A DNA stretch of 23,283 nucleotides, from positions 1-23,283 of the forward strand of contig JAFZGJ010000195.1 in the NCBI GenBank assembly GCA_017555455.1, in the 5' to 3' direction. The stretch's first letter is position 1; the number at the start of each line of letters is the position of its first letter. Source of the stretch: Lachnospiraceae bacterium (lineage in GTDB: Bacteria > Bacillota > Clostridia > Lachnospirales > Lachnospiraceae). The position numbers and the translations under genes were made by a program. The notes beneath the pieces are model-generated. The model saw only the letters and a list, made by a program, of their open reading frames with translations, ran no database searches and had not been told where the DNA came from. Below, piece by piece: positions 21,553 to 22,936 of the stretch.

Positions 21553-21577
21553 AATGGGGCATTATGCCCCATTTTTT
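21553..21577. terminator. bidirectional rho-independent terminator between the convergent transcription units
   Basis: aatggggca-tta-tgccccatt hairpin, flanked by an A-run upstream and a T-run downstream. Confidence 0.7.
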
Positions 21578-21879
21578 ATTTTCGAGAAAACAGTATTTGT
21601 AATTTGGATAATTTCGTCACCATAGGTTGCTATTAAATCTGCCAATAGCTCTTCCTAGTCATAGCTTAAATCTACATTATAAGAAAACATTGCCGCATGA
21701 GTGATTTCATGAGCTAAAACTTTTTTTAAAAAGCTTCCATATAAAGTTTTATCAATATAGATTGTTTTAGTTTCATCATCACAAGCTGCAACAGAATAGC
21801 TACCATCTCGTCTTTTTAATTTTGGATGATTCTGATAAGTAGCTAAAATATGCCATTCTTCTCCATTAATTCTAAACAT
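21562..21879 (-). CDS. HExxH zinc-metallopeptidase-like protein (ImmA/IrrE or SprT-like) with one in-frame TAG; the standard-code ORF is 21655..21879
   Basis: VLAHEITHAAMF is the HExxH motif. The frame continues past the TAG at 21655-21657 for 29 codons (EELLADLIATYGDE...) to TAA at 21562-21564. Confidence 0.5.
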
Positions 21880-22508
21880 TAGCTAATTTTTCCAGCTAAT
21901 TCGGTAATTTTTTGTTTAAGAATTGATTTTTCTTCTGGAGAAGAATCTTGTATCATTTCAGTCATATCTTGACTAAGTTCTTTCATATAATGCTCTAGTT
22001 CTTTCATTTGAACTTCTTTTCCTTTATGCATTTCTTTTGCTTCCATATACATTTTTCGTCTCATTGGACTTTTTCCTTCGCGATAATCTTGGACTTTCAT
22101 TGGATAAGATTCCCAGTCATGTGTCACATATCCTCGCGAAGAGTCTCCATTGTAATTCCCCTAGGATTGCCCGCCATTAGAAGAAGTTCTTCCCATTCGA
22201 TTGGGGTAATCTCTATTACCTTCGGAATACATCATTGGATAATACATTCTTCCATCTCGTCTATCCATATCTCTTTGATATTCATATGGAATCATACGTT
22301 CGGTATAATGATGATGATGTTCTTCTTTACGAACGTCTTTTTCTTCCATTGCCTCAACAACAGAGCAATAATACATTGCTTCAGCCAAATCTTTAATCAT
22401 ATCTACTGCTTCGCCGAGTTCTTTTGCATCAACAGATGCTAAATTCCCGCTAATCTGAGATTGCACTGCACTGACTAAGCTTTCTTTCATATTTTTTAAT
22501 CTTTCCAT
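21879..22508 (-). CDS. hypothetical acidic, Tyr/Met-rich protein with a C-terminal coiled coil and one in-frame TAG; the standard-code pieces are 22161..22508 and 21879..22127
   Basis: The two ORF-track pieces share one frame and are separated only by the TAG at 22161-22163. The 11 codons between them are open. The ATG at 22506-22508 overlaps the upstream stop (TAATG). Confidence 0.5.
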
Positions 22509-22936
22509 TATGCAACCCTCTCAATAATTAAATTTGCGTTTTGAACATCCACTGCTTGTTCACTAACATTTTTTACGCTAATTTGATAGCAACAACCCGC
22601 AGGAACATCTAAAAAAATACTTGAATATACATTATTAAATTCTTCTACTGCAGCAGGAGTAGAAATCATCGTCGTAGATGGGACTTGCTCTCCGTTAATC
22701 GCAATAGCTAATCTAATAGGTTCTGCGGGAACTCCGCCAGTAGGTAATCCCACATTCGCGCCAAAGCTAACTCTGAATCTTGCGCGACATTGATTTCCAA
22801 TGCCGCGTAAAGATACCAGACCACTACCTTCGCGATGGAATATGGAGGAGCAATTTTTTCTTTTTACCGCAGTATCTGTAAAAAAGACATTATCATTTTC
22901 TTCTACTGTCTATAAAGCTGTAGCTGTAATTTCCAT
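22508..22936 (-). CDS. hypothetical protein with one in-frame TAG near the N-terminus; the standard-code ORF is 22508..22753
   Basis: ATG at 22934-22936 lies 10 nt after a GGAGGT ribosome-binding site (plus strand 22947-22952). The frame is open to TAA at 22508-22510 apart from the TAG at 22910-22912. Confidence 0.5.

What the first reader, a model, noticed from the sequence alone, without database searches (positions are those of the whole stretch)
21562..22936. Three consecutive minus-strand genes each carry exactly one in-frame TAG with reading frame and similarity preserved across it
The ImmA-like gene (TAG at 21655), the acidic coiled-coil gene (TAG at 22161) and the next gene (TAG at 22910) each keep a single open frame across the TAG. 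In the third, a strong ribosome-binding site and ATG lie 8 codons upstream of the TAG. Together with the RuvC-like gene this makes 4 of 5 genes in the last 2.2 kb interrupted only by TAG. Phages that reassign TAG in one class of genes have been described. This window fits that pattern with recoding confined to the right-hand block.
Basis: partly seen in the sequence, partly recalled or inferred. Interest (0 to 1): 0.8.

Follow-up and report, generated by a model that had tools for sequence, protein, structure and literature searches.

The report
Gut phage reads TAG as glutamine
The in-frame TAG codons are real and are almost certainly read as glutamine in the late and accessory genes of a roughly 151-kb uncultivated human-gut phage, which is a clear new example of the already described "code 15" stop-codon recoding and not a new phenomenon.

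Summary
Observation confirmed. Three consecutive minus-strand genes each contain exactly one in-frame TAG and end in TAA: 22936-22508, 22508-21879 and 21879-21562. The neighbouring RuvC-like gene (21051-21548, + strand) has three.

The 23 replication and nucleotide-metabolism genes at 100-20965 have none in 6,637 codons, and none of them stops with TAG.

The window is 100% identical to a 151-kb metagenomic scaffold. In the 7.7 kb beyond the window end, 8 of 9 further complete genes and the start of a 3,186-codon gene also carry in-frame TAGs.

Homologues and strain variants point to glutamine:
- They have Gln (CAA/CAG) at 16 of 33 informative TAG-aligned sites.
- TAG exchanges with CAA/CAG between strains about 12 times, including codon 9 of the third gene.
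- Substitutions are mainly synonymous on both sides of the TAGs.

So TAG is a Gln sense codon, and early genes are compatible with both codes. This pattern is well described (Borges et al.; Babkin et al.'s phAss-1; crAss-like and Lak phages).

I did not find the expected suppressor tRNA(CUA) in the ~40 kb I could reach. The call is a new member of a known kind, from a lineage with no close relative in GenBank phages. Interest is modest.

The parts
22508..22936 (-). Gene A: 142 codons, a small BclA C-terminal-domain-like protein (PHROG 20016, unknown function). TAG is codon 9 (22912-22910). Stop TAA.
   Evidence: The PHROG match covers residues 2-142 at E = 5e-48. Pfam BclA_C is below its threshold. 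Codon 9 is Gln in MT838220, Dulem virus 39, Butyrivibrio phage Ceridwen and strain L005 (CAA). It is TAG again in L008 and in the 58%-identical L042.
22948..22952 (-). GGAGG ribosome-binding site, 11 nt upstream of the ATG (22936-22934) of gene A.
   Evidence: Read directly from the sequence.
21879..22508 (-). Gene B: 209 codons. It has a helical N-terminal part, a His/Tyr/Gly-rich linker and a charged C-terminal part. TAG is codon 116 (22163-22161), in the linker. Stop TAA.
   Evidence: Single uninterrupted homologous ORFs span both halves in MT838220 (48% identity over residues 1-209) and Dulem virus 39. Strain substitutions are 8 synonymous to 1 non-synonymous before the TAG and 7 to 4 after it. 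The residue opposite the TAG is uninformative (D, E or gap).
21562..21879 (-). Gene C: 105 codons, a small HExxH (HEITH) metallopeptidase-like protein (PHROG 1233). TAG is codon 75 (21657-21655), directly before a conserved EE-x-x-AD stretch. Stop TAA.
   Evidence: Gln sits at the site in MT838220 and L042, Thr in Dulem virus 39. The alignment continues to residue 102.
21051..21548 (+). RuvC-like Holliday-junction resolvase gene, 165 codons, with three in-frame TAGs (21168, 21300, 21516). Stop TAA.
   Evidence: PHROG 827 covers residues 2-158 at E = 3e-19. Gln sits at codons 40 and 84 in MT838220. The TAGs are conserved in four strain variants, with 14 synonymous to 1 non-synonymous change downstream of the first TAG.
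21004..21032 (+). Sigma-70-like promoter (TTGACA, 17 nt, TATTAT, with a TG extension) in front of the RuvC-like gene.
   Evidence: 11 of 12 consensus positions. This is a consensus match only. Function is inferred.
20973..20996 (.). Bidirectional terminator-like hairpin after the dUTPase gene, at the end of the TAG-free block.
21549..21577 (.). GC-rich hairpin flanked by an A-run and a T-run, between the convergent RuvC-like gene and gene C. It contains the TAA stop of gene C. Likely a shared bidirectional terminator.
   Evidence: -17.2 kcal/mol, z = -3.3.
22969..23283 (-). The 3' part of a 281-codon Gly/Cys-rich gene, the first gene of the same four-gene cassette. It has no TAG in this strain.
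   Evidence: Two of its CAG codons are TAG in strain L008.
100..20965 (+). Twenty-three replication and nucleotide-metabolism genes: YorF-like, AAA_24, DnaB, primase-like, RecJ-like, split DnaE, NrdD/NrdG, dUTPase and others. None has an in-frame TAG and none has a TAG stop (19 TAA, 4 TGA), so the block reads the same under either code.

Best explanation
The window comes from a roughly 151-kb tailed phage of human-gut Firmicutes with an SPbeta/Enterococcus-EF1-like replication module. In its late and accessory genes TAG is a sense codon for glutamine (genetic code 15).

The early replication block avoids TAG altogether, both in frame and as a stop. An unmodified standard-code host can therefore translate it.

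Genes A, B and C, the RuvC-like resolvase, the downstream fibre-like genes and the lysis genes need TAG suppression to give full-length products. I infer that a suppressor tRNA(CUA) charged with Gln supplies this, most probably encoded elsewhere on the phage genome and expressed during infection. Translation of these genes would then be delayed until the code switch has happened.

Shown here:
- TAG is in frame and conserved.
- Purifying selection acts on both sides of it.
- It is equivalent to Gln.
- It is never used as a stop.
- It is biased to non-replication genes.

Inferred, not shown:
- The suppressor tRNA.
- The timing function.
For: 1. Continuity of frame and homology across each TAG.
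2. The ENA gene calls on the identical scaffold are exactly the read-through products (165, 105, 209 and 142 aa). Code-11 calls on other copies are fragmented into 39/66, 74, 82/115 and 81 aa.
3. In the 7.7 kb beyond the window, 8 of 9 complete genes have in-frame TAGs. Counting the four window genes, that is 12 of 13, with 25 TAG in 2,691 codons. The plus-strand genes of the same locus have 0 in 3,236 codons.
4. Across 33 informative TAG-aligned positions in relatives, 16 are Gln. The next most frequent is Lys with 4 (p about 3e-14 against a 4% background).
5. Between 95-97%-identical strains, TAG swaps with CAA or CAG about 12 times, including codon 9 of gene A.
6. Synonymous changes greatly outnumber non-synonymous ones after the TAGs.
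7. None of 46 genes stops with TAG, against 10 of 48 in two standard-code phages that carry the same cassette.
8. TAGs show no special nucleotide context and are spread evenly along genes, as expected for reassignment and not for site-specific read-through.
9. The same pattern and model are described for other gut phages, including large Firmicutes phages related to Enterococcus phage EF1. Code 15 has proteomic support in crAss-like phages (PMC9523058 abstract).
Against: - No tRNA of any kind was found in the window or in about 40 kb of the identical or near-identical contigs. ARAGORN at default settings found none. Relaxed settings gave only low-scoring calls, which I treat as false positives; the one CTA-anticodon call lies inside the RecJ-like gene. 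Rfam found none either.
- About 110 kb of the scaffold could not be reached, so the agent of suppression is unidentified.
- No release-factor or tRNA-synthetase gene was seen.
- For gene B, the residue opposite the TAG in homologues is not Gln. The site lies in a poorly alignable low-complexity linker.
- There is no expression or proteomic evidence for this phage.
Confidence: 0.87

Rival explanations
1. The TAGs are genuine stops in decaying pseudogenes, or they are sequencing or assembly errors.
For: Under code 11 each gene is broken. Code-11 gene callers do fragment them.
Against: - The same TAGs are present in independent assemblies from several samples (L005, L006, L008, L009).
- Substitutions after the TAGs are mostly synonymous.
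- No TAA, TGA or frameshift accompanies them.
- 46 in-frame TAGs in about 20 genes, with zero other disruptions, cannot be explained by decay.
Confidence: 0.02
2. TAG terminates normally. Each gene is really two separate cistrons, with the downstream part started independently.
For: Gene B has in-frame GTG and ATG codons 12-21 codons after the TAG.
Against: - Gene A has no start codon for 52 codons after the TAG, and its only good ribosome-binding site and ATG lie 8 codons before the TAG.
- Homologues in standard-code phages are single ORFs spanning the sites, with a Gln codon there.
- TAG interchanges with CAA/CAG between strains.
Confidence: 0.03
3. Leaky, partial read-through of UAG by the host's own machinery, for example a near-cognate tRNA-Gln. 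There is no dedicated suppressor tRNA and no true reassignment, so both truncated and full-length products are made.
For: No suppressor tRNA was found in the roughly 40 kb examined. Borges et al. detected TAG suppressors in only 40% of TAG-recoded genomes.
Against: - Genes with 5-6 TAGs, such as the 151-codon gene and the holin-like gene, would give negligible full-length product at ordinary read-through rates.
- There is no favourable context bias at the TAGs.
- TAG is completely avoided as a stop.
- Related recoded phages do encode tRNA-Sup-CTA.
Confidence: 0.07
4. TAG is a sense codon for another amino acid, such as pyrrolysine, Lys or Glu.
For: Lys is the second most common residue opposite TAG (4 of 33). 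Some Clostridia decode UAG as pyrrolysine (my own knowledge).
Against: - Gln accounts for 16 of 33 informative positions.
- The between-strain exchanges are overwhelmingly with CAA/CAG.
- Gln-to-Lys is an ordinary substitution in the 67-76%-identical genes where the Lys cases occur.
- No pyl genes were seen, though the search was incomplete.
Confidence: 0.03

Closest known systems
Code-15 (TAG to Gln) recoded gut phages as surveyed by Borges et al. (bioRxiv 10.1101/2021.08.26.457843): crAss-like, Lak, Garnet, Amethyst, Topaz and others
   Same: - In-frame TAG aligns with Gln.
- Recoding is concentrated in structural, lysis and other late genes.
- The replication machinery is in standard-compatible code.
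- The genome has low GC.
- A homing-endonuclease gene inside the early region is recoded.
- The genetic code varies among close relatives.
   Different: This is a different lineage. It is about 151 kb with an SPbeta/EF1-like replication module. The TAG-recoded Firmicutes clades named there are small (22-34 kb), while Lak and crAss-like phages infect Bacteroidetes. No suppressor tRNA or RF2 gene has been located here yet.
phAss-1 / proposed 'Phassvirus' group (Babkin et al. 2023, PMC10607447; GenBank OQ749652)
   Same: - A large human-gut siphovirus-like phage related to Enterococcus phage EF1 and SPbeta-type phages.
- TAG to Gln in a minority of ORFs (28% in phAss-1).
- An extremely long ORF of about 3,150-3,200 codons.
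- DnaE, NrdD/NrdG and a RuvC-like gene are present.
   Different: - The relationship is only distant. DnaE is 38% identical and NrdD 28%. There is no nucleotide-level match, and genes A-C have no homologue in phAss-1.
- phAss-1 has 36 tRNAs, including three tRNA-Sup-CTA, two of them next to nrdD. The corresponding position here holds no tRNA.
Standard-code phages carrying the same four-gene cassette (MT838220 human-gut contig, Dulem virus 39, Butyrivibrio phage Ceridwen)
   Same: The gene order is the same: Gly/Cys-rich protein, BclA_C-like protein, charged linker protein, small HExxH protein. Identity is 36-64%.
   Different: Those phages have CAA/CAG where this phage has TAG. Two of them, Dulem virus 39 and Ceridwen, use TAG as an ordinary stop in 10 of 48 annotated genes.

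Membership tests
Stop-codon-recoded phage, genetic code 15 (TAG = Gln) | In-frame TAG codons in otherwise intact genes, with homology continuing across them | tested here: met
   Genes A-C, the RuvC-like gene and 8 of the 9 complete genes beyond the window end.
Stop-codon-recoded phage, genetic code 15 (TAG = Gln) | TAG positions correspond to Gln in homologues | tested here: met
   16 of 33 informative positions are Gln. There are about 12 TAG-to-CAA/CAG exchanges between strains. Gene B's site is uninformative.
Stop-codon-recoded phage, genetic code 15 (TAG = Gln) | TAG is not used to terminate genes | tested here: met
   0 of 46 genes, and 0 of the 23 early genes whose ends need no assumption about the code. 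Standard-code relatives use it in 10 of 48.
Stop-codon-recoded phage, genetic code 15 (TAG = Gln) | Recoding is biased to late, structural or lysis genes, and early genes are readable in the host code | tested here: met
   0 TAG in 6,637 early codons against 6 in 621 (p = 4e-7). The endolysin and the holin-like gene of a 96% relative are recoded.
Stop-codon-recoded phage, genetic code 15 (TAG = Gln) | Phage-encoded suppressor tRNA with anticodon CUA (often present, not universal) | tested here: inconclusive
   None found in the window or in about 40 kb of the same or near-identical contigs.
Stop-codon-recoded phage, genetic code 15 (TAG = Gln) | Peptides with Gln at UAG positions (experimental proof) | not testable with these tools
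   Needs metaproteomics, as done for crAss-like phages (PMC9523058).
Proposed genus 'Phassvirus' (phAss-1 group) | Genus-level nucleotide similarity and shared synteny with phAss-1 | tested here: not met
   No megablast match in the GenBank phage collection. DnaE is 38% identical at the amino-acid level, and only 12 of 36 query proteins matched, at 26-40% identity.
Pyrrolysine decoding of UAG | UAG positions behave as Lys-like or Pyl-specific sites, and pylTSBCD genes are present | tested here: not met
   Gln dominates at the aligned positions. No tRNA or pyl genes were seen in the accessible DNA, though the search was incomplete.
Context-dependent programmed read-through | A conserved stimulatory context or structure 3' of the stop, at one or a few sites per genome | tested here: not met
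   46 TAGs with no distinctive +4 or -1 context relative to CAA/CAG codons. Their position along genes is uniform.

The most novel reading that the evidence does not exclude
This SPbeta/EF1-like gut lineage may be a natural series of stages in code change.
- Standard-code phages carry the same cassette.
- This phage has TAG only in late genes, accessory genes and homing-endonuclease genes.
- A relative (L041) has TAG throughout its replication genes as well.

A more speculative possibility is that the lineage achieves suppression without a canonical, detectable phage tRNA(CUA). That would point to an undescribed way of switching the code.
Probability: 0.12. Interest if true: 0.6.

Novelty: new member of a known kind. 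Interest (0 to 1): 0.33.

Why it matters
- Annotation. Code-11 gene callers shatter these genes, as the JGI and Logan calls on the same sequence do. Structural, lysis and accessory proteins of this abundant gut phage group are therefore mis-predicted unless code 15 is used.
- Biology. This is one more independent lineage, in large Firmicutes phages, where early genes are code-neutral and late genes require UAG suppression. That supports the idea that recoding acts as a translational timer for late and lytic functions.
- Evolution. Relatives range from no recoding, to partial, to near-complete. Strain-level CAG/CAA-to-TAG changes are also visible. Together these make the group usable for studying how a codon reassignment spreads through a genome.
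- It does not change current understanding.

Tried and rejected
1. Locating the suppressor tRNA.
- ARAGORN on the window and on all fetched loci found none.
- Relaxed ARAGORN gave only low-scoring calls, which I treat as false positives. The one CTA-anticodon call lies inside the RecJ-like gene.
- Rfam at gathering scores found nothing.

2. Walking along the 151-kb scaffold.
- The flank limit is 10 kb.
- Proteins of that scaffold are not in the searchable protein set. The giant-protein query returned only 24-31%-identical DUF285 proteins, and the GyrB query returned relatives only.
- Exact-pattern scans of viral contigs and metagenome contigs found nothing.
- DNA-search loci turned out to be only about 4-6 kb.
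- The closest IMG/VR relative of the endolysin was only 53% identical.

3. Testing whether this is phAss-1 or 'Phassvirus'. Rejected, because the relationship is only distant.

4. A six-frame ORF-coverage comparison of codes. It is too crude to use alone, because removing any stop codon raises coverage. I used it only as a pointer.

5. They would not have changed the verdict.

Full report
**Observation**

The window is AT-rich (about 30% GC). Positions 100-20965 hold 23 tightly packed plus-strand genes. A short plus-strand gene follows, and then a block of minus-strand genes that converges on it.

Translating the minus strand from 22936 gives three abutting genes:
- Gene A, 22936-22508: 142 codons, TAG at codon 9 (22912-22910).
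- Gene B, 22508-21879: 209 codons, TAG at codon 116 (22163-22161).
- Gene C, 21879-21562: 105 codons, TAG at codon 75 (21657-21655).

Each ends in TAA and contains no other stop.

Gene A has GGAGG 11 nt before its ATG, and the next in-frame start codon after the TAG is 52 codons away. The plus-strand RuvC-like gene (21051-21548) has three in-frame TAGs.

**Is it more than chance?**

- The 23 early genes contain 0 in-frame TAG in 6,637 codons. The four genes at the right end contain 6 in 621 (Fisher p = 4e-7).
- As a share of Gln-type codons, TAG is 6 of 24 on the right against 0 of 217 on the left (p = 5e-7).
- None of the early genes can be extended upstream through a TAG into a better start.
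- The open frame after the TAG is very unlikely by chance for gene A (2/20,000 shuffles) and gene B (3/20,000). It is not unlikely for the 30-codon tail of gene C (6.6%), so that case rests on homology.

**Homology across the TAGs**

- PHROG profiles match the read-through products end to end. The RuvC-like gene matches residues 2-158 (E = 3e-19). Gene C matches 2-102 (E = 2e-14). Gene A matches 2-142 (E = 5e-48).
- Pfam gives only sub-threshold hints: RuvC/DUF3882, SprT-like/M78 and BclA_C.
- tblastn against GenBank phages finds the same gene cassette in a human-gut contig (MT838220), Dulem virus 39 and Butyrivibrio phage Ceridwen.
- In those phages the genes are uninterrupted, and the alignments run straight through the TAG positions.

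| Site | Residue in relatives |
|---|---|
| Gene A, codon 9 | Gln in all three |
| Gene C, codon 75 | Gln in MT838220, Thr in Dulem virus 39 |
| RuvC-like, codons 40 and 84 | Gln in MT838220 |
| RuvC-like, codon 156 | Ala |
| Gene B, codon 116 | uninformative; it lies in a low-complexity linker |

For gene B, both halves of the protein are nevertheless found in single ORFs in MT838220 and Dulem virus 39.

In gene C the TAG sits directly before a conserved EE-x-x-AD stretch, 15 residues after the HExxH motif. Termination there would remove a conserved part of the small domain. This comes from the alignment, and the functional reading is my inference.

An exact-protein look-up of the window's dUTPase found the source. 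An ENA scaffold of 151,197 bp is 100% identical to window 10435-23283 and continues 7.7 kb further (L004). Strain variants from other samples are 95-97% identical (L005, L006, L008, L009).

The ENA gene calls on that scaffold are exactly the read-through products (165, 105, 209 and 142 aa). The code-11 calls on the JGI and Logan copies are fragments.

Downstream of the window, 8 of 9 further complete minus-strand genes contain in-frame TAGs, up to six in a 151-codon gene. So does the start of a 3,186-codon gene. Counting the four window genes, 12 of 13 are recoded, with 25 TAG in 2,691 codons. All stop with TAA or TGA. The plus-strand genes of the same locus have 0 TAG in 3,236 codons. The finding passes the test that could have refuted it.

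**Which amino acid?**

- Between strains, TAG is exchanged with CAA or CAG about twelve times. Codon 9 of gene A is one case, being CAA in L005 and L009.
- Pooled over relatives of different depth, the residue opposite a TAG of this phage is Gln at 16 of 33 informative positions, Lys at 4, and scattered otherwise (p about 3e-14 against a 4% background).
- The Lys cases occur in genes that are only 67-76% identical, where Gln-to-Lys changes are ordinary.
- TAGs of relatives conversely align most often with Gln in this phage.
- Substitutions among strains are mainly synonymous on both sides of the TAGs: RuvC-like 14:1 downstream, gene B 8:1 upstream and 7:4 downstream, gene C 10:1 upstream. The whole read-through frame is therefore under purifying selection.

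**Stops and context**

None of 46 genes in about 40 kb stops with TAG. Two standard-code phages with the same cassette use TAG in 10 of 48 genes (p = 0.001). This comparison is imperfect, because those phages have higher GC.

The 46 in-frame TAGs I could collect show no distinctive neighbouring bases compared with CAA/CAG codons, and they are evenly spread along genes. That argues for general reassignment and against site-specific programmed read-through.

**Wider picture**

- Left of the window, the early block continues with gyrB, gyrA and ligase, all without TAG. Two GIY-YIG endonuclease genes and one other gene embedded in it do carry TAGs.
- Upstream of gyrB, in a 96%-identical relative, tail-fibre-like genes, an Amidase_2 endolysin (2 TAG) and a holin-like gene (5 TAG in 110 codons) are recoded.
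- A large, abundant sister clade (GyrB 76% identical, contigs up to 200 kb) is recoded in the same way.
- Among MAG-binned relatives, one (L042, 158-kb contig) is syntenic and even shares the TAG at codon 9 of gene A. Another (L041) has TAGs throughout its replication genes, including 15 in the RecJ-like gene.
- Recoding is therefore a lineage trait of variable extent.

**Mechanism**

The pattern matches the published model. Early genes can be read by the standard-code host. Late, lysis and some selfish-element genes need UAG suppression, which phages usually provide with a tRNA(CUA). The code change would then work as a translational timer (Borges et al.). The same pattern occurs in phAss-1 with three tRNA-Sup-CTA (Babkin et al.). 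Proteomic proof of code 15 exists for crAss-like phages (PMC9523058 abstract). NCBI taxonomy already holds a 'Caudoviricetes code 15 clade'.

Here the RuvC-like gene has its own near-consensus sigma-70-type promoter and three TAGs. One plausible reading is that it can be transcribed by host polymerase at any time but is translated only after the switch. This is inference.

The weak point is that I found no tRNA in any DNA I could reach. About 110 kb of the scaffold is unexamined. Borges et al. likewise detected TAG suppressors in only 40% of TAG-recoded genomes.

**Comparison and novelty**

- No nucleotide-level relative exists in the GenBank phage collection.
- The best DnaE matches are Enterococcus phages of the EF1/VRE9 type (43%) and SPbeta (40%).
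- phAss-1 is more distant still (38%) and lacks genes A-C.

This is a new lineage showing a known phenomenon, so the call is a new member of a known kind. Its practical value is correct annotation. It also offers a lineage in which stages of recoding, and individual CAG/CAA-to-TAG steps, can be compared.

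Noticed in passing
window 11094-16106 (also L005, L006, L009, L010): The DnaE-type polymerase is encoded as two ORFs (11094-13571 and 14802-16106). A GIY-YIG endonuclease gene (13775-14617) and about 200-nt spacers lie between them. Strain variants carry endonuclease genes at other positions of dnaE. Some also split nrdD, and gyrB is split in L010 (573 aa + endonuclease + 69 aa, where relatives have an intact 635-aa GyrB). Rfam found no intron. In L042 the two dnaE ORFs are adjacent without an endonuclease.
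   Followed up: partly
L010 1758-2447, 7116-8084, 8551-9258 (just left of the window): Two homing-endonuclease genes and one other gene inside the otherwise TAG-free early block carry 2-3 in-frame TAGs each. This parallels the recoded intron endonuclease reported for Agate phages.
   Followed up: partly
L041 (MAG contig DGSM01000088.1) and L042 (JAFVUY010000119.1): Relatives differ in the extent of recoding. L041 has TAGs in replication genes (RecJ-like 15, primase-like 3, DnaB 1). L042 has them mainly in the RuvC-like gene and the cassette genes, and it shares the TAG at codon 9 of gene A.
   Followed up: partly
window 21562-23283 and L004 12535-13380: The four-gene cassette comprises a Gly/Cys-rich 281-aa protein, a BclA_C-like protein, a charged His/Tyr-rich protein and a small HExxH protein. 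It is conserved in order in standard-code phages. It has higher GC here (37% against 30%). Its first gene uses CAG for 12 of 16 Gln codons, and two of those are TAG in strain L008. This looks like an acquired module in the process of being recoded. Its function is unknown.
   Followed up: partly
window 21004-21032: A near-consensus sigma-70 promoter (TTGACA, 17 nt, TATTAT, with TG) sits immediately upstream of the thrice-recoded RuvC-like gene. It lies after a bidirectional terminator at 20973-20996.
   Followed up: no
L004 19176-20531 and onward: A 3,186-codon gene with DUF285/BspA-like leucine-rich repeats lies on the minus strand. It is comparable in length to the ORF annotated as tape-measure protein in phAss-1, but it looks more like a giant adhesin or fibre. 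It has 2 TAGs in the 452 codons seen.
   Followed up: no
L043 (MAG contig JAZKZW010000082.1): In the crude ORF-coverage test, this 58%-identical relative gained more from reading TGA as sense than from reading TAG as sense. That hints at a different code in a related phage. The alignments I made showed no in-frame TGA, so this is unconfirmed.
   Followed up: partly
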